From IMG/VR virus record IMGVR_UViG_3300045988_061891: a stretch of 64,000 nucleotides of DNA; one strand, given 5' to 3'. Positions within the stretch are counted from its first letter, which is position 1. Every line of letters begins with the position of its first letter. Both the position numbers and the translations under genes were made by a program. This document shows, piece by piece, positions 3,679-24,417 of the stretch. Below the pieces are notes generated by a model, which saw nothing but the letters and a program-made list of their open reading frames with translations, had not been told where the DNA came from and did no database searches. This DNA is from a virus.

Positions 3679-4605
3679 TTACTTAATGTCCCAAGGACTT
3701 GAAGGAGCTGCAAATGGGTCAGCATCTGCATTGTCAGTGATAGTGGAACTCTTTACAGAATACTCATGGAATTCTACTGTTTCAAACTCAGTAGTGGCAT
3801 AAGCACCTGCATTTTTCCTCTCTTGTACATTGGCATCCAGCTTACTGTAATCAGATATACTGTTCTTCAAGAACATCTGAGTGAAAGCAGCTTGATACTG
3901 TCTGCCCTCATTGTCAGTTCTGATACCGAACAATATCTTAACCTTGTTGGTAGGTTGGAGGGAAAGAGCTCCTCTCAACTCAGAGAAGTCACCCTTGAAA
4001 TAGTCTTCAATGTGGTCAAGTCTACACTCTGAATCCTCTGGGTGGTCAACCATATACCACTTCTTCTCAGTGTTATTGTACCTCATCACAGAAGGAATGT
4101 TGAGGTAGGCAATCAGTAAGTTGGTAAGGTCCTCTTCACCTACATAGGCAGGTCTGTAGTCCTTGTCAAGATTGGCAGGACCATTGGCATACATAGGAAT
4201 CTCATGATTCTTGCATTCCTCGATAGTCACCCATGCAGTTCTACCATACTTGTCAATGACCTGTACTTTGGTTTTGTCTTTATTATACCTGTACCTCTTC
4301 TGAAGGAAGAGAGTCATACTGATAGGTTTGAGTTCAATACCTACCTTCTCAGGGTCAGGGAGTGCAAGGAAACTAAGCCTTACATTAGGATATTTCACCT
4401 TATTATCACCTTCAGTGACCTCTACAGTACCCACATATTCAGGTTCCTTGTCAAGAGGATTACCATAAATCTTCTCAAGCTGAGCCTTGTCAGGGTTGAG
4501 GCCTTTGATGAAGCAAGGAGCTACACCAATATACCTTTTGAAATCACCTTCTGTGGATTCTTTACCTTTGGCAATTGCCATGAATAAATAACCTTTGTTG
4601 TTCAT
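3679..4605 (-). CDS. putative ssDNA-binding protein (function tentative)
   Basis: ORF trimmed to MNNKGYLF (ATG 4605; alternative ATG 4581) because the listed start overlaps the upstream gene. Sits in the replication module and has an acidic/aromatic C-terminal tail ...DADPFAAPSSPWDIK. Confidence 0.45.
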   Translation of the reverse strand: MNNKGYLFMAIAKGKESTEGDFKRYIGVAPCFIKGLNPDKAQLEKIYGNPLDKEPEYVGTVEVTEGDNKVKYPNVRLSFLALPDPEKVGIELKPISMTLFLQKRYRYNKDKTKVQVIDKYGRTAWVTIEECKNHEIPMYANGPANLDKDYRPAYVGEEDLTNLLIAYLNIPSVMRYNNTEKKWYMVDHPEDSECRLDHIEDYFKGDFSELRGALSLQPTNKVKILFGIRTDNEGRQYQAAFTQMFLKNSISDYSKLDANVQERKNAGAYATTEFETVEFHEYSVKSSTITDNADADPFAAPSSPWDIK

Positions 4606-4639
4606 TTTGTAGTCTGTTGTTAGTTTATTGTTTATATTC

Positions 4640-5068
4640 TTATTCAAGTCCATTAAGAGGGTTGAAGGCTGCATCAGTAGCTGTAGTCTCCACTTCACCT
4701 ACCTTAGCCTCAGAGTCTATATCAAAGTCAGCTCCTGCACTATCTTCAGTAGGAGGAACCTCTACAGGTGCATGGAAAGTCAGTACCTGATTCTTGACTT
4801 GATACTTGCCTTCCTTATCCATCTTGGGAGTACCATCCTCATTAAACTGAGGCTCATATGTGCAAGTGATGAGGTCAATAGACCTGAAACCACCAGTCAT
4901 AGCCATAATACCAGCTTCACCACCATCAAGGATAGCTTGCTGGATAGTTCTTTCTTCTTGAAGTTTAGCAATCTTCTGGTCAATAGACTCAATCTTCTTC
5001 ATTGCGGGAAGTGAGTTCTTGAACTGCCTTTTGACAGCAGCAATTTCTCTAGTTGTTAATTCTTTCAT
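4640..5068 (-). CDS. hypothetical protein (N-terminal coiled coil)
   Basis: 142-aa ORF, tightly packed in the minus-strand operon. Confidence 0.6.
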   Translation of the reverse strand: MKELTTREIAAVKRQFKNSLPAMKKIESIDQKIAKLQEERTIQQAILDGGEAGIMAMTGGFRSIDLITCTYEPQFNEDGTPKMDKEGKYQVKNQVLTFHAPVEVPPTEDSAGADFDIDSEAKVGEVETTATDAAFNPLNGLE

Positions 5069-5085
5069 GTTTTCTTTTCTTTTTG

Positions 5086-5766
5086 TTAGTTATAATATTC
5101 ATCCATTGCCTTTACAACAAGACCTAAGTCATTAGGGATGAAGTCTTGTTCAAACATATCAGCAGGAGATTTGGCAGGAATCTCCGCTCCACCTTCCATA
5201 CATCTATGAGTATAGAATCCATAGCTAGCCTCTCCTTTGTCATTGTACTTGACAGAAGAGAAGAGAGTCATAGGAACTACCTCGGCAGGATTATAGCTAT
5301 TGTCAATAAGCTTACCTACTGTAGAGGTCTTATATCCTACGATAGTATTGTCAGAGTAGATTTCCTCACAGTGCATAATAATGAACACATTGAGATTATC
5401 CCTCAGGTTCTCAGCAGTGCTGACAATACTTTGGAAGTGGGCTGCAATATCAACAAACTTATTAAAGCCAGATACTTTAGCAGTCTTGAAATACTCTTTT
5501 CTCATAATGTAGGTGGCATCCTCTATAATGATGTTTCTAATATGAGGGGCAGACTTATCTACACCTTGCATATAATTCATTATAGTGGCATAGTCATCTA
5601 CATTGAAAAGATTCTTATTCTCTTCATTATAGAGAGACTTACTTCCCTTAAAAGGAAGCCTCTTCTTCAATACATTGAAGATAACTGTTTCTTTGGGGTC
5701 AAGACCTTTGATACTTGAAGATTTACCAGTACCAGTCTTGCCCAGAATGAGACAAATGTTAGCCAT
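5086..5766 (-). CDS. P-loop NTPase (RecA/Sak4-like AAA ATPase)
   Basis: Walker A LILGKTGTGKSS at the N-terminus; Walker B-like NIIIEDATY. Confidence 0.7.
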   Translation of the reverse strand: MANICLILGKTGTGKSSSIKGLDPKETVIFNVLKKRLPFKGSKSLYNEENKNLFNVDDYATIMNYMQGVDKSAPHIRNIIIEDATYIMRKEYFKTAKVSGFNKFVDIAAHFQSIVSTAENLRDNLNVFIIMHCEEIYSDNTIVGYKTSTVGKLIDNSYNPAEVVPMTLFSSVKYNDKGEASYGFYTHRCMEGGAEIPAKSPADMFEQDFIPNDLGLVVKAMDEYYN

Positions 5767-6782
5767 TTTTCTTGTTAAGTAAAGATTTTATTGATTTAAT
5801 AAAGAAGGAAACACCCTTCTTCTTTGGTTGTTTTAGTGTCTGAATATAGGTATAGACTCTTTCAAGTCCTTCCTTATCATCAGCTCTTGGAAGTTCTGCA
5901 AATGTACTTGCAGCACCATCAAAGAACAGAGGGCATATGTTGTTACTTGCACCATAGTCTCTATCCTCAATAACCTCCATAAACCTGATAAAGTTACCAA
6001 ACTTTGTAATGTCATATCCCTCATATTCTCTCAGTCCATATTTATAAGGACTATAAAGACCAAGGACAAAGTTGGCATCCCTTGTTGTAGTCTTACAGTC
6101 TGCAAGACCATCAGAAGATGGCTTAATCTTATTGAGCTTCTGATTTTCTATACCTTCTTGAGCCTGTGCCTGATGTTGAATGAGAACAAAGATGTACTTG
6201 AGCTGATTTCTCAAAATTATACCATACTTGGCAAGTTTATCAATGTTCTCCATTTTCTTCATACCACTTTCAAGTGCAAGGTTTGAAGCATTGTCAACTA
6301 TAACAATCCTATATTCCTCAGGGTCATCTGGGGTATAAGGATTGTCAGAGTCAACTACTCTTCTCTTGGTAATTTTGCTATCATCAAGAGGGTCTACAAC
6401 ATCAACCTCCTTGAAGTTGAGATGTCCATGAGATAAGGCATAATCTCTGCACCTTTTATTAATACCAGTAGGATTCTTATCCTCATCAATGAACTCAACC
6501 ATCTCATTGAACTTATCAATGTATGGTTTATATCTCTCAGATTCAAGTAGTTCAAGAACCTTCTCATCAACAGGCCTCTCTTGGTCAGTGCTTCTTAAGT
6601 CAGTAGGAGATATTCTTATGTTGTCAAGCCTATATAGCAAATGACAATAGAACTCATCCCTCTTTGCAGAGGGGCTCATCTCCAATGTGAAATAAAGAAT
6701 CTTTACCTTGAGTTCGGGATGTTCCATAGAAAAGAATAAAGGTTCATAGACCAGCATATAGTCAGTGAATTTACTTTTTCCT
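5759..6782 (-). CDS. DnaB-like replicative DNA helicase, exon 2
   Basis: ORF 5759..6802 contains the DnaB-family motifs GKSKFT (second half of the P-loop), YFTLEMS, IVIVDNASNL and LIQHQAQAQ. It lacks an N-terminus and a proper start (GTG). The proposed exon boundary lies after intron-terminal G 6783. Confidence 0.75.
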
Positions 6783-7692
6783 CGTACTACTATAGTTTTC
6801 ACTACCAGATTACTCTGTTTGTAGTCTGGACTATGTCTTCACCCTTAGCTTTACCTATTAGGGTGCACCTGCATCTAGTCTCTGGGGCTGTAGCATTACC
6901 TACTATGCCTCCTCAAGTCAGTCAGTATTGTTTCCAATAAAGCCTTCGAGGATATTCAGGTGTAATAATATATTAGATTACTCTAATGCACGACATTGCA
7001 TATAATTCTTGTATTTAGTATTCTGCTTATTAGAGTTAATAGTTAAAGGAGGTAAATTTTCTAATCTGTATGAAAATCTATATCCCTTACATTGCTGATA
7101 TGTCCCATTAGTAACTCTACAAATACTAGACTCACTGATACCTAGTCTTCTAGCAGTATCTTTAAGCCCTAATGGATTCTCAAACAGCAATTTTCCCTCT
7201 AAATTATATACATATACTGTAACAGGATTAAAGTTCCATTCTAGTTTTCCTTCATTATGAAGTCTTCTTCTAGTGTCTCCTTGTTTTATCCTTGATTCTT
7301 TGGATAGAATATTTCTCTTAACTATTCTAGTTATGTTGTATTCTGCTCCAAATAAATCTATACAATATTGCTCTTTTTCTGTAAGATTGTCACAATCACA
7401 AAGTTCTAAGACAAACCATCTAAAATTACTCTCACCATACTTATCCCAAGCACTTTGCAAGTGAGGGTTCTGATGTTTATTATGCCTAAGTAAGGCAAAA
7501 TGTTTTAACAACCTTTGATATATGTTCTTTGAACTTCCTATATAGGTTTTGTGATTGATGATGTTCTCAATGCAGTATATACCAGATACTTTTAATTCCT
7601 TTGTAATCTTATTCATAATGTTTTATATTTTACTGCAAATATAAAACAAAATTTCCAAATATACAATAGAATAAATGAATTACTTAGCTTTT
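6783..7692 (-). mobile_element. group I self-splicing intron carrying a GIY-YIG homing endonuclease ORF
   Basis: Interrupts the helicase P-loop. The 3' 195 nt are GC-richer and contain R-like CAGAGACUAGAUGCAGG (6868-6886) and S-like GAAGACAUAGUCC (6828-6840) elements, giving P7 GACUA/UAGUC. The 5' exon ends in U and the intron ends in G. Confidence 0.7.
6978..7616 (-). CDS. GIY-YIG homing endonuclease (intron-encoded)
   Basis: SGIYCIENIINHKTYIGSSKNIYQRLLKH...SAWDKYGESNF...EKEQYCIDL matches the GIY-YIG, R and E/N motifs. The C-terminal region looks like an HTH DNA-binding domain. Confidence 0.8.
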   Translation of the reverse strand: MNKITKELKVSGIYCIENIINHKTYIGSSKNIYQRLLKHFALLRHNKHQNPHLQSAWDKYGESNFRWFVLELCDCDNLTEKEQYCIDLFGAEYNITRIVKRNILSKESRIKQGDTRRRLHNEGKLEWNFNPVTVYVYNLEGKLLFENPLGLKDTARRLGISESSICRVTNGTYQQCKGYRFSYRLENLPPLTINSNKQNTKYKNYMQCRALE

Positions 7693-9644: not shown

Positions 9645-10128
9645 TACTGTTTACAATCCGTTTAAGTTTATGAATATATTTAGGGTCTTCTGCATATCCT
9701 ACCCTCTGAAGAAAACTATAGTAGTCTTCAGGAGGTTTATATCTCTTTTGCACCCACTCCTTATATGCTATAACACTCTTTGTCCAGTGGTCAAATCTAT
9801 GGTACCTATTAGTCCTACTATTGTATAGACCAAACAGATTATTATGTCTCAAACATCCTACTGATGTAAAGTGTCCTGTCTCAAGCAGTGCCTGAGCATA
9901 CACTATATCAGGGTGAGTGACATCATAATATTTAAGGGCATCTGCTAAGCCCTCTTTCATAGGTTTGTCCATAAATACTGGGACAGGGGTTATAGTGTCA
10001 GGAGGTGAAGTAACATCATGATTGGGTGGTCCAGCTTTATCTTCAAATTGGTGTATGAAGATAATACCAGCTGTACATATCCCAATCATCAATGCTACTT
10101 TGATGAAGTTTTTGATTCTTTCTGTCAT
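9601..10128 (-). CDS. membrane-anchored N-acetylglucosaminidase (FlgJ/LytD-type glucosaminidase domain)
   Basis: N-terminal TM segment ALMIGICTAGIIFI, then AQALLETGHFTS...NNLFGL, characteristic of the glucosaminidase family. Confidence 0.6.
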   Translation of the reverse strand: MTERIKNFIKVALMIGICTAGIIFIHQFEDKAGPPNHDVTSPPDTITPVPVFMDKPMKEGLADALKYYDVTHPDIVYAQALLETGHFTSVGCLRHNNLFGLYNSRTNRYHRFDHWTKSVIAYKEWVQKRYKPPEDYYSFLQRVGYAEDPKYIHKLKRIVNSNDKRRSLEGSKGNS

Positions 10129-11282
10129 CTTAGTTGTTTGATGTTTGATTCAATACTATCATTGTAGTAGACATGGTCTGGTACATAGTGTAGATTATCC
10201 ACAAGAGTATCAAGAATTTTCTCTTTCCCATGGATATTGTAATGAGGGGAGCCTGAGTTGTCAAGGTAATCCCAGCTATATATGCTATACTCCTCATTAT
10301 CTATGATATGAGTCATATCCATATGTGTAACAACTAAGTTAAGAGATATATTGTACTTCTTCACATAGTTGTCTATACAGTGCCTTTCATAGGCTCTGTT
10401 AAGGAGACCCATCTCAAGGATACCTGTCTTGAAGTTTCCCTGAAACTCATTGTCTATGTTAGACTCATATTTATCAGTCAGTTTATTAGGCTCTCTGAGC
10501 CTGTGTTTAGGTTCATAGCCATTACCATGTCTGGTAGTGTAAGTCCTAGTGACAAGGTACACCTCTGCATCCTTAAGGACAGAACTTCTGAGACCATTAA
10601 GTCCCACTCTTGAAGGAGTTACATTGGGGTATAGTCCACAGTCCATGTCAAGAAGCAACCCCTGTGTTCCCTCAAATATAAGAACATTATAGTCCTTTAT
10701 TGAGGGCTTATCGGAATATACTTCTGTAAGAATCTCAAGACAGGATTTCTTAAACATATCATCATATTTAGGAATCCTCTCTATCTTGTGATAGTTTGAC
10801 GCGCACTTAAGGATATACTCAGGCTTGTCCAGACTGAAAGAGACTCTTGTCCACTGACCATGTTTATACCTCTCAAATGTAGGATATATACCCTTGCCAC
10901 AAGTTCCATCTGATATTACCTTGCTGTTGTTTCTTCCAGCAAGAACATCATAGGGTGTGATAATTCTATGTACACCACGGAATAGCTTTGGAGACACTCC
11001 TTTACACTGTAGAGTTCTGAACTCATTCATAAGACATATGGGGTCCATATATACCTCTTCTGTATACATAGTAGGTACACCAAGTAATACACCACTTCCA
11101 AAAGAGGAACAGATATGCTCTGTTCCCCCATTGAAAATAGTATGTGCTGCTTGGGGACCACCTGAGAATCTTACCACAAGTGGTTTCTTCCCTTCTTCAA
11201 TAGCCTTTTTGCAAAGCCACTGAACAGTCACCCCTTTTCCTTCATCGCCAAAGGTGTGACCCAACACTATTTTAACTTCCAT
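10125..11282 (-). CDS. adenylosuccinate synthetase family protein (PurA-like; PurZ-like cannot be excluded)
   Basis: N-terminal GHTFGDEGKGVTVQWL P-loop, GGPQAAHTI (GHT-type His) and TRHGNGY. At 385 aa it is shorter than typical bacterial PurA. Confidence 0.65.
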   Translation of the reverse strand: MEVKIVLGHTFGDEGKGVTVQWLCKKAIEEGKKPLVVRFSGGPQAAHTIFNGGTEHICSSFGSGVLLGVPTMYTEEVYMDPICLMNEFRTLQCKGVSPKLFRGVHRIITPYDVLAGRNNSKVISDGTCGKGIYPTFERYKHGQWTRVSFSLDKPEYILKCASNYHKIERIPKYDDMFKKSCLEILTEVYSDKPSIKDYNVLIFEGTQGLLLDMDCGLYPNVTPSRVGLNGLRSSVLKDAEVYLVTRTYTTRHGNGYEPKHRLREPNKLTDKYESNIDNEFQGNFKTGILEMGLLNRAYERHCIDNYVKKYNISLNLVVTHMDMTHIIDNEEYSIYSWDYLDNSGSPHYNIHGKEKILDTLVDNLHYVPDHVYYNDSIESNIKQLR

Positions 11283-13030: not shown

Positions 13031-13139
13031 AGCTACTTAAGTGATACATTGACAGTGTATTGCATTAACCACTATGCTAATCATTCATGGCGAATAATAT
13101 AGGATTCGAACCTATGAAGTAATAGTATTGTAAGTAGCT
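13031..13139 (-). tRNA. circularly permuted tRNA-Asp(GUC)-like gene: the 3' half precedes the 5' half, bracketed by a 9-bp helix
   Basis: Minus strand reads AGCTACTTA-CAATACTATTACTTC-[ATAGG TTCGAAT CCTAT]-ATTATTC-G-CCA-T-[GAATGAT TA GCAT AGTGGTTA ATGC A ATACA CTGTCAA TGTAT]-CACT-TAAGTAGCT. The acceptor strands pair 7/7 (one G-U). The outer 9-mers are perfect complements. Confidence 0.6.
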
Positions 13140-13143
13140 GAAG

Positions 13144-13267
13144 TAAGGCAGAGAAGAATCGAACTTCTGTTATAGGGACCCATTTTATTAATATAATATA
13201 GTGTTGTAAGTATCTTTAGATACTATATATTTATTAACCTATGTCCTAACCACTAGACGACTGCCTT
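13144..13267 (-). ncRNA. tRNA-shaped RNA with the anticodon loop replaced by a 61-nt AU-rich hairpin
   Basis: Perfect acceptor AAGGCAG/CTGCCTT, D-arm GTCT AGTGGTTA GGAC, T-arm AGAAG TTCGATT CTTCT and stem ATAGG/CCTAT enclose 13177-13237. That insert contains the ACTTACAA box. Confidence 0.5.
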
Positions 13268-13287
13268 ATGAAATTGGCACTACTTTT

Positions 13288-13362
13288 TATGCACTGATGG
13301 AATTGAACCATCTCTAATTGTACCCAAATTACAATTGTCCTAACCAAGTAGACGAAACGCAG
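13288..13362 (-). tRNA. tRNA-Gln(UUG)
   Basis: Hand-folded cloverleaf: CTGCGTT TC GTCT ACTTGGTTA GGAC .. loop ATTTGGG .. GATGG TTCAATT CCATC AGTGCAT A. Confidence 0.7.
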
Positions 13363-13387
13363 AATTATTATTGTAAGTGCCAAAAAG

Positions 13388-13495
13388 TGGGGAAGGTAGG
13401 AGTCGAACCTACATTGAATAATTTAAAAGATTATTGCTTATTTATATGATATTGTAAGTACCATTAGATACTATGTCCGTTTTAGCTACTTCCCC
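13388..13495 (-). tRNA. tRNA-Lys(UUU)-like gene interrupted by a 34-nt insert between the D-arm and the anticodon arm
   Basis: GGGGAAG TA GCTA AAACGGACA TAGT A [insert 13435-13468] ATAAT CTTTTAA ATTAT TCAAT GTAGG TTCGACT CCTAC CTTCCCC A. The insert folds as ATGGTA-CTTACAA-TATCAT. Confidence 0.55.
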
Positions 13496-13512
13496 TTGTG
13501 TAGTCACTATTT

Positions 13513-13586
13513 ATGTACATGTTAGAATCGAACTAACTACCCTTGAATTACCAGTTCAATGCTCTAACCAAATGAGCTAATGTTAT
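13513..13586 (-). tRNA. tRNA-Thr(GGU), acceptor stem unpaired at 1-3:70-72
   Basis: TA GCTC ATTTGGTTA GAGC A TTGAA CTGGTAA TTCAA GGGTA GTTAG TTCGATT CTAAC. The acceptor ATAACAT/ATGTACA pairs only at positions 4-7. Confidence 0.55.
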
Positions 13587-13650
13587 TAGTATTGTAAGTG
13601 ACTTCATTCCAATTCTTCAATTGGACAATAATTTAACAAGCTTAAATTGC

Positions 13651-13774
13651 GCCTATCATAGGGATTCGAACCCACTTTTTACTGACCTCTTCATCTCATA
13701 CCTACCTAGGTCAGTATGAGATTGCACAGCTTTTGGAATTCTTAATATGTGCACTAATAAGAATTCATGATAGG
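13651..13774 (-). ncRNA. 124-nt tRNA-like RNA (acceptor-type terminal helix plus T-loop, expanded body)
   Basis: CCTATCA...TGATAGG is a perfect 7-bp terminal helix. T-loop GGGTTCGAATCCC. 9-bp hairpin GAATTCTTA/TAAGAATTC. Interleaved complements ATCTCATAC/GTATGAGAT and CTGACCT/AGGTCAG. Confidence 0.4.
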
Positions 13775-13783
13775 CCTTAGTAA

Positions 13784-13810
13784 GTATAGGAGGCATCACT
13801 CCTCCTATAC
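13784..13810 (-). other. 10-bp stem-loop (GTATAGGAGG / CCTCCTATAC) running into a TACTTACTAAGG box
   Basis: Perfect inverted repeat with a 7-nt loop and no U-tract. It lies between the vWA gene and the 124-nt RNA. Confidence 0.5.
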
Positions 13811-13816
13811 CTTTAT

Positions 13817-13876
13817 TGATACTTAATAGCATTGATATTAACTTTTAAATGAGCTATAAAAATGTTGTAAGTATCA
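13817..13876 (-). other. ACTTACAA-box unit: 9-bp bracket helix TGATACTTA / TAAGTATCA enclosing a 42-nt segment
   Basis: Same architecture as the brackets around the tRNAs, but the enclosed sequence has only an ATAGC/GCTAT hairpin. Confidence 0.4.
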
Positions 13877-13891
13877 TTGGCTTTTGAACTA

Positions 13892-15715
13892 TTAAAGCAC
13901 GTTTTCTCTTACTATATCATATCTATTACTCCTAAATAATGATTGTAAAGGAGTATAGACATCCATAATATCCATATCTTTGAAGTTAGTTAAGAACTGT
14001 TCAATCTGCGCTACATTAGCAGGGATATAAATCATGTTCTCAATACCTTCAAATCTGTCGATAGAAGCACTATTGAAACCCCAACCACCATCTACATCAA
14101 TAGCTACAATATATGGCTTAAATCCAAAGTATCTTTGACACTTCATCATAAAGGCATTCATTGAAGCCTCAGGAGACTTTAATGAGTTCCACTCACCATC
14201 GCTGATGATAGTCCATACAGGATAGTTCTTTAGAGCATCAAGTATCTGAGGATTATTCTGACATTCTTTGTGCAAATCATCAGGTATGTTACTGATGTAA
14301 GTACAACCACCTTGGAATACTGCCTTACAGAAGCTCTTGATAGATTGATAGTTCTCATAGAAACTCTTCTTAGGGTCAACAAAAGGAGTTTGCTTGGTTT
14401 TTACTGTTTCACTTCTGATGAAAGAGTTTACAGAGTTATTCTTTCTGTCTATACAAGTATGCCAGTGACTTCTACTATTGAAGAAACCAAGTAAGTTTCT
14501 ACCATCATCATCTGGATTCTTACATAGACATACAGAAGCTAAGAATGTAGCAAAGTTAAAGGGACTACCGCCCATAGAGCCCGAATCATCTATAATCACA
14601 AGACTATTATAAGGAAGATTAACCTTAGTCATGAATGTTTCAAGCTTTAATTTATCTACATTATCACAACAGATGTCATTATATAGCTCTTTGAAGTTAG
14701 TTGCTCCTACAGTAACTTTAGCCTGCTTTGCAACTTTCTTCAACTTGATTTTATCTTCCTCTGTAGCCTGTCCCTGTCTAACCTTTTCTTCTAGAACTCT
14801 TTGTTCAGCTTGCTTAGATTCCTTGTATTTCTCCCATTCAGCAAGCCAAGGCTGGAACTTAGAATATTTAGCTTCTTCAGTATCTTTAATTTTACTGTAA
14901 AGAATTCTGTTCTTAACTCTAAATCTTGCTTGTGAAGGAAGCTTGTCAAACCAATCAATAAATGATTGTTCGTCAAACTCATTGATTTTACCTGTAGAGA
15001 ACAGTACTGACTCGAGGTCACCATTATAATCCTTTCTCCATTTCCTGTAGCCTTTGAAGTTTGCATAGTTTTCGCTTACTTCATACTCCCAACCCATAAG
15101 CTCTGAGAGCATTATGAGTAACTTGACCTTATCTTCCATTACCTTTTTAGTTTCAGGAAGCATCTTTTTATGATTGCTTCTTTTACTTACTCTAGGAAGT
15201 GTCAAGAATTTAGCAACAAGAGTTTTATTGAAAGGATTATTACTGTTGATAACCTTATAGAGGTAGTTTACAATAACCTCTCTGTATTTTGCTTCAGCAA
15301 AGAGATTGTGTATTCTGGTAACTCTAGAACCCTTTGTCTGTACTCTATTTCTAAACAGTAAGTCAAAGCAAGTATATTCATTGAACAAACCTGCTTCAAG
15401 GAACTTCACAAATTGAGTTTGACGTTTCTTCCACATCCACTCAAGGACTACTTGAAAACCTTCTCTATTGGCATTACCACCACTATCCTTCTTAATACCC
15501 TTAAAGATATTATGTTGTCTAGCTGTAATATCACCAATTGAGAAAAGTAAACTAAAGAACATTTGCTTATGCTCCTTATTCCATCGAACTTCTGACCAAC
15601 AAGCATCAAGTAATGCTGTGTCAATCGTGTTGCCTACACTCTGAAAGAGTTTAAGGCAATTCTTTAACCCATAAAAAGGATTATCGTTACTTTTATTTAA
15701 CTTTACCTGTACCAT
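13892..15715 (-). CDS. DUF2828-like helical domain plus von Willebrand factor A (vWA) domain protein
   Basis: 607 aa. MIDAS motif in VIIDDSGSMGG. The N-terminal ~370 aa are helical (NPFYGL...LLDACW...FSIGDITARQ...LEWMW), resembling DUF2828-type proteins (family name recalled, not searched). Confidence 0.65.
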   Translation of the reverse strand: MVQVKLNKSNDNPFYGLKNCLKLFQSVGNTIDTALLDACWSEVRWNKEHKQMFFSLLFSIGDITARQHNIFKGIKKDSGGNANREGFQVVLEWMWKKRQTQFVKFLEAGLFNEYTCFDLLFRNRVQTKGSRVTRIHNLFAEAKYREVIVNYLYKVINSNNPFNKTLVAKFLTLPRVSKRSNHKKMLPETKKVMEDKVKLLIMLSELMGWEYEVSENYANFKGYRKWRKDYNGDLESVLFSTGKINEFDEQSFIDWFDKLPSQARFRVKNRILYSKIKDTEEAKYSKFQPWLAEWEKYKESKQAEQRVLEEKVRQGQATEEDKIKLKKVAKQAKVTVGATNFKELYNDICCDNVDKLKLETFMTKVNLPYNSLVIIDDSGSMGGSPFNFATFLASVCLCKNPDDDGRNLLGFFNSRSHWHTCIDRKNNSVNSFIRSETVKTKQTPFVDPKKSFYENYQSIKSFCKAVFQGGCTYISNIPDDLHKECQNNPQILDALKNYPVWTIISDGEWNSLKSPEASMNAFMMKCQRYFGFKPYIVAIDVDGGWGFNSASIDRFEGIENMIYIPANVAQIEQFLTNFKDMDIMDVYTPLQSLFRSNRYDIVRENVL

Positions 15716-15737
15716 TTGCTAATGTTTTATTTTATTT

Positions 15738-15745
15738 TTGTAAGT
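15738..15745 (-). promoter_or_regulatory. ACTTACAA box about 20 nt upstream of the vWA gene start (candidate promoter element)
   Basis: Minus strand reads CGTTACTTACAAAAATAAAATAAAACATTAGCAAATG. The same 8-mer occurs 6 more times in 13128-13872. Confidence 0.35.
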
Positions 15746-15800
15746 AACGTAGTTAGGATATTCTTTTTATCTTTGAACTATATATGTCTTCCTTATACTA

Positions 15801-24323: not shown

Positions 24324-24415
24324 GGAAGTTTAATCAGTAGGAGCTGAAAGATTCTCTTGGAAAAGAGAGGATTGACCTATGGAAAGGTATAGGGGTTCGA
24401 GTCCCCAAACTTCCT
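24324..24415 (+). tRNA. type II tRNA-Ser(GGA)-like with an 8-nt anticodon loop
   Basis: GGAAGTT/AACTTCC acceptor, D-arm TCAG TAGGAG CTGA, stem TTCTC/GAGAG enclosing TTGGAAAA, variable arm ACCT ATGGAA AGGT, T-loop GGGG TTCGAGT CCCC. Confidence 0.5.
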
Positions 24416-24417
24416 CT

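What the first reader, a model, noticed from the sequence alone, without database searches (positions are those of the whole stretch)
13144..13267. tRNA-shaped RNA whose anticodon loop is replaced by a 61-nt AU-rich extended hairpin
The acceptor (AAGGCAG/CUGCCUU), D-arm and T-arm are canonical. The stem AUAGG/CCUAU, however, encloses 61 nt (13177-13237) instead of 7. The insert can zip into a long imperfect helix (UUAAUA/UAUUAA, AUAUAG/CUAUAU) capped by a region containing AGUAUCU/AGAUACU and the ACUUACAA box. Removing 12 nt (UAUCUAAAGAUA) would leave AUAUAG-CUUACAA-CUAUAU, again a Val(UAC)-type loop. At 61 nt it is far too short for a group I intron, and bacteria lack the archaeal/eukaryal splicing endonuclease, so it is neither a typical bacterial nor a typical archaeal tRNA intron.
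Basis: seen in the sequence. Interest (0 to 1): 0.65.

Follow-up and report, generated by a model that had tools for sequence, protein, structure and literature searches.

The report
Phage tRNA mimic beside Ro-like gene
The odd "tRNA with a 61-base insert" is real, but it is most likely a tRNA-derived non-coding RNA and not an intron-bearing tRNA: it is one of about eight RNA units, all carrying the same small hairpin signal, that lie next to a Ro60-like protein gene in a gut crAss-like phage, a layout that recalls bacterial Y RNAs.

Summary
**Observation:** confirmed. On the minus strand, 13267..13144 folds as a complete cloverleaf with 61 nt in place of the anticodon loop (Rfam tRNA 44.5 bits).

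**Not a strain-specific insertion.** Eleven distinct relatives carry it:
- Exon-like parts are 97-98% identical.
- The central hairpin plus UACAAU is 93% identical.
- The rest of the insert is only 66-69% identical.
- No anticodon loop is conserved.

**The "ACUUACAA box" is a repeated module.** It consists of a 7-bp helix (NNNYACU/AGURNNN), whose variable part covaries, followed by UACAA(U). The module takes several forms:
- It flanks tRNAs.
- It sits inside tRNA-like genes.
- It closes a circularly permuted, YrlA-type tRNA-like gene.
- It brackets the start codon of the adjacent 607-aa gene.

All copies lie within 2.9 kb.

**The 607-aa protein.** It is an α-helical domain plus a vWA/MIDAS domain, and it occupies the syntenic slot of the TROVE (Ro60) gene of phage crAss001. 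That gene is likewise followed by tRNA-like genes carrying an analogous module (helix + UUACUUCAA).

**Best reading (confidence about 0.5):** a tRNA-Glu-derived Y-RNA-like mimic whose hairpin module is the docking site for the neighbouring Ro-like protein.

**Unproven:** binding, expression, and TROVE homology of the protein's N-terminal domain.

**Rivals:** an RNA-processing signal, or a protein-spliced intron.

**Novelty:** a new variant of a known kind.

The parts
13144..13267 (-). The finding: a tRNA-Glu-derived tRNA-like RNA. The 5' part is 13267..13238, the 61-nt insert 13237..13177 and the 3' part 13176..13144.
   Evidence: Rfam tRNA 44.5 bits over the full model with a 61-nt insertion. 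ARAGORN -i detects it. 11 homologues aligned. Its D-arm stretch TCGTCTAGTGGTTAGGACATA is identical to that of an uninterrupted tRNA-Glu(UUC) in L017.
13201..13224 (-). Module inside the finding: hairpin AGUAUC-UAAA-GAUACU (13224..13209) followed by UACAACAC (13208..13201).
   Evidence: 93% pairwise identity among relatives against 66-69% for the flanking linkers. The same module recurs in other units.
13031..13139 (-). Circularly permuted, YrlA-topology tRNA-like unit. Order: AGCUACU|UACAAUACUA, T arm, acceptor 3' strand, loop GCCAU, acceptor 5' strand, D arm, anticodon arm (GUC), AGUAGCU.
   Evidence: Read directly from the sequence. The acceptor-like stem covaries among relatives (GAAUGAU/AUUAUUC, GGAUGAU/AUUAUCC, AGAUGAU/AUUAUCU). 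The anticodon arm is variable or deleted in relatives.
13275..13382 (-). UGGCACU|UACAAUAAUAAU, then tRNA-Gln(UUG) (13363..13287), then AGUGCCA.
   Evidence: ARAGORN and Rfam detect the tRNA. The helix covaries to UGGUACU/AGUACCA in L007-L009.
13388..13495 (-). Second tRNA-like gene (GGGGAAG.../...CUUCCCC) with hairpin module AGUAUC-UAAU-GGUACU|UACAAU (13472..13457) and a long extra arm.
   Evidence: ARAGORN -i. Homologues are present in most related loci.
13502..13603 (-). AGUCACU|UACAAUACUAAUA, then a tRNA-Thr(GGU)-like gene with only a 4-bp acceptor stem (13583..13517), then AGUGACU.
   Evidence: Rfam tRNA 50.8 bits over model positions 4-67. The helix covaries to AGUUACU/AGUAACU in L005.
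13651..13811 (-). GC-rich hairpin GGUAUAGGAGG...CCUCCUAUACU|UACUAA (13811..13777), followed directly by a degenerate tRNA-like element with a 9-bp acceptor-like stem and a T loop (13775..13651).
   Evidence: Read from the sequence. Not analysed further.
13817..13876 (-). Module right after the stop codon of the 607-aa gene: UGAUACU|UACAAC, a 46-nt non-tRNA loop, then AGUAUCA.
   Evidence: The helix is kept in L001-L011 and L013 while the loop sequence is not.
13892..15715 (-). 607-aa protein: N-terminal all-alpha domain (about 365 aa) plus a C-terminal vWA domain with a MIDAS motif (DDSGSM 376-381, T472, D506). It is the positional counterpart of the crAss001 TROVE/Ro60 gene Gp96.
   Evidence: AF2 model. 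Foldseek finds vWA folds in the PDB, and the best full-length BFVD hit is shared with a TROVE model. hhalign to the Gp96 family: vWA domain 94.8% probability, N-domain no signal. Synteny. No Pfam TROVE hit.
15685..15749 (-). Module bracketing the 5' UTR and start codon of the 607-aa gene: CGUUACU|UACAAAAA (15749..15737), ATG at 15715, then AGUAACG (15691..15685, codons 9-11).
   Evidence: The helix covaries among loci (CGUU/AACG, UGUU/AACA, AGUU/AACU).

Best explanation
The locus encodes a non-decoding tRNA mimic derived from a tRNA-Glu gene. Its acceptor, D and T arms are kept under strong selection. Its anticodon loop has been replaced by an arm that displays a conserved module: a 6-7-bp helix ending in ACU/AGU, followed on the 3' side by single-stranded UACAA(U).

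It is one unit of a roughly 900-nt array transcribed with, and just downstream of, a gene for a Ro60-like protein (alpha-helical domain plus vWA/MIDAS).

Proposed mechanism, by analogy with bacterial Ro60(Rsr)-YrlA particles:
- The module is the docking site for the neighbouring protein.
- The tRNA-shaped body is the effector end. It is recognised by tRNA-binding enzymes such as RNase P/Z, modification enzymes, or an exoribonuclease such as PNPase.
- The RNA therefore tethers or gates the phage Ro-like protein early in infection.
- The copy of the module around the protein's own start codon would give autoregulation.

**Shown here**
- The cloverleaf and the insert.
- Conservation of the exon-like parts and the module, with decay of the anticodon region.
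- Helix covariation.
- Clustering of the modules next to the gene.
- A neighbouring unit with YrlA topology.
- The same layout behind a bona fide TROVE gene in crAss001, cr106_1 and a metagenomic relative.

**Inferred**
- That the 607-aa protein is a Ro60 relative.
- That it binds the module.
- That the RNA is expressed and stable.
- Any downstream effector.
For: **1. The structure is real and selected.** Rfam tRNA scores 44.5 bits with a 61-nt insertion. Exon-like parts are 97-98% identical, hairpin plus UACAAU 93%, and linkers 66-69%. The 27-43 pair makes a compensatory change.

**2. It does not decode.** The bases next to the 3' strand of the anticodon stem differ among close relatives (GGGUC, UCAUC, AGGUC, UAGUA, UUUCAAUC, UUUCGGUC).

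**3. The module is a helix.**
- 153 of 184 ACTTACAA sites have an exact AGT+rc(N4) partner within 200 nt. Controls with N4 permuted among sites give a mean of 43.9 and a maximum of 60.
- Homologous helices covary between genomes.
- Hairpin versions use at least 8 different stems.

**4. The modules cluster.** In the 64-kb window, 6 of the 7 sites between 13135 and 15745 have an exact partner, and the seventh pairs through a G-U. Only 1 of 11 sites elsewhere has a partner.

**5. YrlA topology.** Unit 13031-13139 has exactly the published YrlA order: 5' strand, T arm, closed acceptor-like stem-loop, D arm, 3' strand. YrlA genes lie within 4 kb of Ro60 on the same strand (PMC4201824; 10.1101/312249).

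**6. The protein.** It has a vWA/MIDAS domain plus an alpha-helical N-domain. Its vWA domain is homologous to that of crAss001 TROVE Gp96 (hhalign 94.8%). Its top full-length structural neighbour, A0A481Z9J2, is also hit by a TROVE model. It sits in the syntenic slot of Gp96.

**7. True TROVE genes show the same layout.** Behind the TROVE genes of crAss001, cr106_1 and L163 lie tRNA-like genes with 50-70-nt inserts (one Rfam tRNA hit at 46.6 bits). All 10 UUACUUCAA sites there have a 7-bp partner. In crAss001, 4 of the 7 sites in the roughly 100 kb examined fall in that 900-nt gap.

**8. Timing.** crAss001 TROVE is an early gene (PMC8375218).
Against: - No TROVE signal was found in the 607-aa protein, in 12 relatives, or in 10 distant family members. 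No Ro60 chain appears among the top 50 PDB fold hits.
- The N-terminal domains show no profile similarity to Gp96, and the model is only moderate (pTM 0.49).
- The conserved motif (ACU|UACAA) does not resemble the known Ro-binding motifs GGUCCGA or GNCGAAN0-1G. No Rfam Y RNA family matches.
- The finding itself has the normal tRNA order with open acceptor ends, unlike YrlA.
- The same module flanks apparently usable tRNAs (Gln in the window). In L019/L025 it interrupts a tRNA-Glu(UUC) with an intact anticodon arm. This fits a role in tRNA biogenesis at least as well.
- There are no expression or binding data for this phage.
Confidence: 0.5

Rival explanations
1. RNA-processing or punctuation signal. 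The helix plus UACAA module is a cleavage or stability site, comparable to the RNase III sites of phage T7 or rRNA processing stems. It would cut the early polycistronic transcript into mRNA, tRNAs and tRNA-like pieces. In the finding the site simply sits in the anticodon arm, and cleavage would yield two halves held together by the cloverleaf. This is not exclusive of protein docking.
For: Modules sit at unit boundaries: after the stop codon, around the 5' UTR, and flanking tRNA-Gln and the tRNA-Thr-like gene. Spacing is bimodal, at 40-60 nt and 70-110 nt. The helix persists even where the enclosed tRNA has decayed.
Against: A 7-bp helix is short for RNase III. The modules are confined to one 2.9-kb region and are not used genome-wide. 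Punctuation does not explain why tRNA-like bodies without anticodons are so strongly conserved. No nuclease gene was identified among the roughly 40 ORFs scanned.
Confidence: 0.22
2. A new protein-dependent tRNA intron or permutation system. An endonuclease and a ligase would recognise the module, remove it and rejoin the RNA, as the archaeal bulge-helix-bulge (BHB) machinery does for introns, permuted tRNAs and split tRNAs. Functional tRNAs would result.
For: The module occurs at several tRNA positions: the anticodon loop, between positions 26 and 27, the variable region, and outside the acceptor stem. It also closes a permuted gene. This is the same repertoire as archaeal BHB substrates. L019/L025 carry a tRNA-Glu(UUC) with an intact anticodon arm interrupted at 26/27. 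In L015/L016, joining ACG to GC-UUUGUAA-GCCGU would create a perfect Thr(UGU) arm (by inspection).
Against: - For the finding, no deletion gives a conserved 7-nt loop.
- Linker lengths and sequences vary, so no fixed cut-site rule emerges.
- No 3-4-3 BHB geometry is present.
- Modules also enclose non-tRNA loops and a start codon.
- No EndA, RtcB or Rnl-like gene was found in the ORFs scanned.
Confidence: 0.1
3. A decaying pseudogene. A small mobile repeat (MITE-like) landed in a redundant phage tRNA gene, and the gene is now drifting.
For: The anticodon region is decaying. Neighbouring cassettes have lost their tRNAs in some relatives. The phage has a separate, complete canonical tRNA cluster at 23.9-27.7 kb.
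Against: Exon-like parts are 97-98% identical across genomes whose neighbouring protein is only 82-98% identical, and they include a compensatory pair change. The module helix covaries rather than being copied. The arrangement is conserved as far as loci with 50-60% protein identity, and in the TROVE clade.
Confidence: 0.06
4. An internal promoter. UACAAU would be a -10 box (TACAAT), and the repeat marks transcription starts for each unit.
For: TACAAT lies about 7-13 nt upstream of several tRNA 5' ends. A crAss-like middle-promoter motif is reported upstream of tRNA genes (10.1101/2020.03.07.982082).
Against: - Sigma-70-like matches are not enriched (17 against 14.7 +/- 5.1), and only 2 of the TACAAT sites have a -35-like hexamer.
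- From general knowledge, Bacteroidota promoters use a different consensus.
- A promoter does not explain selection for complementarity between the 7 nt upstream of the motif and a site 15-110 nt away.
Confidence: 0.05

Closest known systems
Bacterial/phage YrlA Y RNAs with Ro60 (Rsr) (Chen et al. 2014, PMC4201824; Wang et al. 2018, 10.1101/312249)
   Same: - A tRNA-shaped domain with conserved D and T loops and no anticodon loop.
- A stem carrying a conserved motif attached where the anticodon stem would be.
- Encoded just downstream of, and on the same strand as, a Ro60-type gene.
- The neighbouring unit 13031-13139 has the exact YrlA order (T arm, closed acceptor-like hairpin, D arm).
- A conserved UA follows the 5' strand of the stem.
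   Different: - The finding keeps the normal tRNA order with open acceptor ends, and its motif-bearing stem is a closed hairpin.
- The motif is ACU|UACAA (UUACUUCAA in the TROVE clade), not GNCGAAN0-1G or GGUCCGA.
- There are up to about eight units per locus in three topologies, some enclosing apparently usable tRNAs.
- No Rfam Y RNA model matches.
- The partner protein in this clade has no detectable TROVE domain.
Archaeal and algal BHB-processed tRNA genes (introns at many positions, circularly permuted and split tRNAs)
   Same: One small RNA signal occurs at many tRNA positions, in permuted genes and in flanking stems.
   Different: There is no bulge-helix-bulge geometry, no splicing endonuclease or ligase was found, the host is bacterial, and no consistent exon junctions could be derived.
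Phage T7 RNase III processing hairpins and rRNA processing stems
   Same: Conserved helix-plus-loop signals lie between units of a polycistronic early transcript, and some are retained at mRNA ends.
   Different: The helix is only 7 bp, the signals are restricted to one 2.9-kb locus, and they are embedded inside tRNA-like bodies.
Bacterial tRNA genes with group I introns (e.g. cyanobacterial tRNA-Leu(UAA))
   Same: An insert lies in the anticodon loop of a tRNA gene in a bacterial-type genome.
   Different: From general knowledge, group I introns are roughly 200 nt or longer with a P1-P9 ribozyme core. This insert is 61 nt, has no Rfam intron match, and sits in no conserved anticodon context.

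Membership tests
Decoding tRNA | Cloverleaf with acceptor, D and T arms and conserved D/T-loop nucleotides | tested here: met
   Rfam tRNA 44.5 bits over model positions 1-71. ARAGORN -i detects it.
Decoding tRNA | 7-nt anticodon loop (U33, purine 37) with an anticodon conserved among orthologues | tested here: not met
   61 nt replace the loop. The residues adjoining the stem differ among 11 relatives, and ARAGORN assigns AAU, AUA, UAU or UUA according to genome.
Group I intron in tRNA | Ribozyme core of roughly 200 nt or more, recognisable by the Rfam Intron_gpI model | tested here: not met
   The insert is 61 nt. No intron family appears even at E <= 10.
BHB (archaeal/eukaryal-type) tRNA intron | Two 3-nt bulges separated by a 4-bp helix at the exon-intron junctions | tested here: not met
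   By inspection of the fold and alignment, the junctions lie in AU-rich linkers of variable length with no 3-4-3 motif.
BHB (archaeal/eukaryal-type) tRNA intron | Splicing endonuclease and RNA ligase available | tested here: inconclusive
   None was found among about 40 window ORFs scanned with Pfam and PHROGs. The rest of the genome and the host were not examined.
YrlA / Y RNA | Encoded within about 4 kb of a Ro60 (TROVE) gene on the same strand | tested here: inconclusive
   The finding lies 625 nt downstream of, and on the same strand as, a helical+vWA protein that occupies the syntenic slot of crAss001 TROVE Gp96. No TROVE domain is detectable in that protein.
YrlA / Y RNA | tRNA-like domain lacking an anticodon loop, with conserved D and T loops | tested here: met
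YrlA / Y RNA | T arm 5' of D arm, closed acceptor-like stem-loop, and 5'/3' ends forming the protein-binding stem | tested here: not met
   The finding has the normal tRNA order with open acceptor ends. The neighbouring unit 13031-13139 does meet this feature.
YrlA / Y RNA | Ro-binding motif GNCGAAN0-1G or GGUCCGA in the 5' strand of the stem | tested here: not met
   The conserved motif is NNNYACU|UACAA.
YrlA / Y RNA | Bound by Ro60 in vivo | not testable with these tools
   Needs RIP, CLIP or gel-shift experiments.
Ro60/TROVE protein (for the 607-aa ORF) | TROVE (HEAT-repeat ring) domain | tested here: inconclusive
   There is no Pfam hit and no hhalign signal for the N-domain. The N-domain is all-alpha in the AF2 model. 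The top full-length BFVD neighbour is shared with a TROVE model.
Ro60/TROVE protein (for the 607-aa ORF) | C-terminal vWA domain with a MIDAS motif | tested here: met
   DDSGSM, T472 and D506 are invariant. Foldseek finds vWA folds. hhalign to the Gp96 vWA domain gives 94.8% probability, E = 5e-8.

The most novel reading that the evidence does not exclude
The helix plus UACAA module is the recognition signal of a previously unknown RNA cutting-and-joining system that is protein-based and found in a bacterial virus. The system would splice interrupted tRNAs, mature circularly permuted ones, and release flanked ones. It would be a functional analogue of the archaeal BHB machinery, possibly involving the adjacent 607-aa protein.
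Probability: 0.07. Interest if true: 0.95.

Novelty: new variant of a known kind. Interest (0 to 1): 0.62.

Why it matters
Crassvirales are the most abundant phages of the human gut, and the role of their early TROVE/Ro-like gene is unknown. This analysis links that gene to a conserved array of tRNA-derived RNAs that share one small structured signal.

- **A testable RNA partner.** It gives a concrete set of candidate partners for the phage Ro-like protein. This can be tested directly in crAss001, which is cultured.
- **Relevance to Y RNA origins.** The array holds normal-order, permuted and tRNA-flanking versions of the same design side by side. That bears on the proposal that Y RNAs evolved from tRNA or dimeric tRNA transcripts (10.1101/312249).
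- **A practical warning.** tRNA finders run with intron options will mis-annotate these genes. They assigned the homologues of this one gene as Ile, Tyr or 'Stop' depending on the genome.

Tried and rejected
- **Promoter reading of TACAAT.** The sigma-70 scan was not enriched, and a promoter does not explain the complementarity.
- **Motif search AGTATC-N3-8-GATACTTACAA in IMG/VR.** Of 121 hits, only about 8 were in a tRNA context and the rest were chance. It was abandoned as a way to enlarge the data set.
- **Literature searches.** Searches for permuted tRNAs in phages, for the motif string, and for Y RNAs in crAss-like phages found nothing directly relevant. One review could not be retrieved.
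- **tblastn of the 607-aa protein against GenBank phages.** No match.
- **Sequence routes to TROVE.** All were negative for the N-domain: PDB profile search, Pfam on 13 relatives, Pfam on 10 distant family members from an exhaustive HMM search, and hhalign on the N-domains alone.
- **Deriving a universal splice rule by hand.** Tried on units in L014, L018 and L022. No consistent junctions emerged.
- **Non-coding RNAs of phi14:2.** They were examined as a possible expressed analogue. That region holds a tmRNA-like gene, not the module.
- **Origin from the window's own tRNA-Glu.** It is not similar to the finding. The tRNA-Glu origin therefore rests on L017 and L019/L025, and on recalled similarity to E. 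coli tRNA-Glu.
Full report
**1. Setting**

The window is part of a crAss-like (Crassvirales) phage genome.
- Its only DNA matches in GenBank phages are tRNA genes of cr116_1 and IAS virus.
- The nearest database protein is labelled Crassvirales.
- The genes on the minus strand between 0.9 and 13 kb are collinear with those of Bacteroides phage crAss001.
- It carries a canonical tRNA cluster on the plus strand at 23.9-27.7 kb and a few tRNAs on the minus strand.

**2. The observation**

On the minus strand, 13267..13144 reads AAGGCAG-UC-GUCU-AGUGGUUA-GGAC-A-UAGG-[61 nt]-CCUA-UAAC-AGAAG-UUCGAUU-CUUCU-CUGCCUU-A.
- The Rfam tRNA model aligns all of positions 1-71 at 44.5 bits, with 61 nt inserted in place of the 9 central positions.
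- ARAGORN sees the gene only when introns are allowed, and it then assigns a meaningless anticodon.
The energy itself is unremarkable for such AT-rich RNA (z = -1.59).
- One detail is wrong. Deleting UAUCUAAAGAUA leaves a 9-nt loop CUUACAACA, not a 7-nt Val-type loop.

**3. It is conserved, and selection acts on the arms and the hairpin, not on an anticodon**

Using the neighbouring 607-aa ORF as a handle, I collected 27 related loci from IMG/VR. Further copies came from exon patterns searched in IMG/VR and metagenomes. Eleven distinct versions of this gene exist.

Mean pairwise identity by region:

| Region | Identity |
|---|---|
| 5' exon-like part | 97% |
| 3' exon-like part | 98% |
| Central hairpin plus UACAAU | 93% |
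| 5' linker of the insert | 66% |
| 3' linker of the insert | 69% |

- The 27-43 pair changes from U-A to C-G in three sequences.
- The bases that should form the 3' side of an anticodon loop vary freely (GGGUC, UCAUC, AGGUC, UAGUA, UUUCAAUC, UUUCGGUC). They look like the eroding remains of a Glu loop.
- An uninterrupted tRNA-Glu(UUC) with an identical D-arm stretch (TCGTCTAGTGGTTAGGACATA) exists in L017.
- L019 and L025 carry a tRNA-Glu(UUC) with an intact anticodon arm and the module inserted between positions 26 and 27.
- The window's own canonical tRNA-Glu is not related to the finding.

The gene is therefore a tRNA-Glu derivative that no longer needs to decode.

**4. The 'ACUUACAA box' is a repeated RNA module**

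The motif occurs six times between 13125 and 13872 and once at 15745, all on the minus strand. It occurs essentially nowhere else in 64 kb in a comparable form.

- In every case the 7 nt ending in ACU just before UACAA are complementary to an AGU-led 7-mer nearby.
- Across the window and 27 loci, 153 of 184 ACTTACAA sites have an exact Watson-Crick partner within 200 nt. When the variable 4 nt are permuted among sites, the mean is 43.9 and the maximum 60.
- Homologous helices covary between genomes: AGUC/GACU to AGUU/AACU, UGGC/GCCA to UGGU/ACCA, and CGUU/AACG to UGUU/AACA or AGUU/AACU.
- Hairpin versions use at least eight different stems.

The module appears in these arrangements:
- **(a)** 5' strand, UACAAU..., tRNA, 3' strand. 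Examples are the tRNA-Thr-like gene (13502-13603) and tRNA-Gln (13275-13382).
- **(b)** A closed hairpin inside a tRNA-like gene. Examples are the finding and 13388-13495. In other phages this form also occurs at position 26/27.
- **(c)** 5' strand, T arm, acceptor 3' strand, loop, acceptor 5' strand, D arm, (anticodon arm), 3' strand. This is a circularly permuted tRNA-like gene (13031-13139).
- **(d)** Around 40-60-nt loops with no tRNA, for example right after the stop codon of the 607-aa ORF (13817-13876).
- **(e)** Around the 5' UTR and start codon of that ORF (15685-15749).

A sigma-70-type promoter reading is not supported.

**5. The neighbouring protein and the crAss001 parallel**

The 607-aa ORF (13892-15715) has no Pfam or PHROG family.
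- Its alignment shows an invariant MIDAS signature: DDSGSM, T472 and D506.
- The AF2 model (pLDDT 73, pTM 0.49) is an all-alpha N-terminal domain of about 365 residues followed by a vWA fold.
- This is the domain plan of Ro60.

crAss001 encodes a bona fide TROVE protein, Gp96.
- Pfam TROVE scores E = 5.5e-13, with a weak Ro60-vWA match.
- It is reported as an early gene and 'a possible ribonucleoprotein component' (PMC8375218).
- By synteny, the 607-aa ORF sits exactly where Gp96 sits. In both phages the gene is followed by about 900 nt without ORFs and then by the Gp94 homologue.

Tests of homology between the two protein families:
- Profile comparison detects homology of the vWA domains (94.8%, E = 5e-8). 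It detects none for the N-terminal domains.
- No TROVE hit was obtained for distant family members found by an exhaustive HMM search.
- Ro60 itself is not among the top PDB fold hits.
- A weak transitive link exists. The best full-length BFVD neighbour of the 607-aa model (A0A481Z9J2: E = 8.5e-8, TM 0.56 normalised to the target, 0.47 to the query) is also hit by a model of the crAss001-type TROVE protein (E = 8.8e-8). That TROVE model's top hits are annotated Ro-like/TROVE phage proteins.

I therefore call the protein Ro60-like in architecture and position. Homology of the ring domain is not shown.

**6. The same RNA design follows true TROVE genes**

- The 900-nt gap after crAss001 Gp96 holds two tRNA-like genes with 70- and 53-nt inserts. 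One scores 46.6 bits with Rfam tRNA.
- The gap also holds four copies of UUACUUCAA. These are 4 of only 7 copies in the roughly 100 kb examined.
- In crAss001, cr106_1 and a metagenomic relative (L163), all ten such sites are preceded by 7 nt that pair with a partner. The partner lies either about 40 nt upstream (a hairpin inside the tRNA-like gene) or 32-99 nt downstream. The first module lies directly after the TROVE stop codon.
- The logic is identical to that of the window. The single-stranded motif differs by a short indel: UUACUUCAAUA against (U)UACAAUA.

**7. Comparison with what is known**

Bacterial and mycobacteriophage YrlA Y RNAs have these properties (PMC4201824; 10.1101/312249):
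- They are tRNA mimics encoded within about 4 kb of Ro60 on the same strand.
- Their order is: 5' Ro-binding strand, variable region, T arm, closed acceptor-like hairpin, D arm, 3' strand.
- They lack an anticodon loop.
- At least one is cleaved by RNase P.

Unit 13031-13139 has exactly this topology. In relatives that have lost its anticodon arm (L002, L006-L009) the match is complete.

The finding is the non-permuted counterpart. It keeps the tRNA order and open acceptor ends, and its motif-bearing stem is closed by a tetraloop.

The differences are real:
- The motif is unrelated to GNCGAAN0-1G or GGUCCGA.
- No Rfam Y RNA model matches.
- The locus holds many units, some enclosing usable-looking tRNAs.

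I found no paper describing such RNAs in Crassvirales.

**8. Mechanism proposed, and its status**

The most likely reading (about 0.5) is as follows.
- The RNA is a stable tRNA-shaped scaffold that presents the module to the adjacent Ro-like protein.
- The tRNA-like end engages tRNA-recognising factors.
- The module over the protein's own start codon provides feedback.

*Shown:* the structure, its conservation pattern, helix covariation, clustering, the YrlA-type neighbour, and the parallel behind true TROVE genes.

*Inferred:* binding, expression, the effector, and Ro-type fold of the N-domain.

Rivals:
- A cleavage or punctuation signal (about 0.22, and compatible with protein docking).
- A new protein-dependent splicing or permutation system (about 0.1). 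This is attractive because of the range of insertion positions and the interrupted but intact tRNA-Glu in L019/L025. However, no consistent junction rule or enzymes were found.
- A pseudogene hit by a repeat (about 0.06).
- A promoter (about 0.05).

**9. Verdict**

The element is best filed as working like a Y RNA (a tRNA mimic plus a protein-docking stem). It fails several sequence and topology criteria for membership in YrlA, so I rate it a new variant of a known kind. Interest: 0.62.

Noticed in passing
window 10125-11282 (-): A 385-aa ORF matches PHROG 1211, '2-aminooxy adenylosuccinate synthetase' (PurZ-like; E = 6e-40). This hints at modified DNA bases in this phage.
   Followed up: no
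window 24324-24416 (+): ARAGORN reports a 93-nt 'tRNA-???' with a four-base anticodon (ggaa) inside the canonical tRNA cluster.
   Followed up: no
window 13031-13139 (-) and homologues in L001-L011: The anticodon of the permuted tRNA-like unit differs among close relatives (GTC, GTT, TTT, GAT, TCA), or the whole anticodon arm is deleted. The stem, D arm, T arm and acceptor-like stem are kept.
   Followed up: partly
window 13517-13583 (-): The tRNA-Thr(GGU)-like gene has only a 4-bp acceptor stem. That stem covaries among relatives (ACAU/AUGU, GCAU/AUGC, GUAU/AUAC). Positions 1-3 and 70-72 never pair.
   Followed up: partly
L022 ~5533-6800; L025 ~4488-5800; L026 ~5527-6800: In three distant relatives the Ro-like gene is interrupted just after the MIDAS 'SDG' by about 1.3 kb carrying an ORF. 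The gene then resumes with GEWNN..SPEAS. This looks like an intron with a homing-endonuclease-like gene.
   Followed up: no
window 6978-7616 (-): A GIY-YIG plus NUMOD-like homing endonuclease ORF lies within the replication module.
   Followed up: no
L151 (Cellulophaga phage phi14:2, NC_021806) ~3990-4530: The long non-coding region reported as very highly transcribed in phi14:2 contains a tmRNA-like gene (GGGGUCGAC ... GGGGGUUCGAAUCCCCCCGACUCCAC). It does not contain the module.
   Followed up: partly
window 13484-13490 (-): AGUAGCU inside the 5' part of the second tRNA-like gene (GGGGAAGUAGCUAAA, conserved in relatives) is also complementary to the AGCUACU strand of the permuted unit 350 nt downstream. 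This could be an alternative long-range pairing or a coincidence.
   Followed up: no
window 13651-13811 (-): A GC-rich hairpin followed by UACUAA directly abuts a degenerate tRNA-like element with a 9-bp acceptor-like stem, and ORF finders call a 58-aa ORF across it. In relatives L002-L011 the same hairpin is followed by ACUCACUUCAA, which resembles the crAss001-clade motif.
   Followed up: partly
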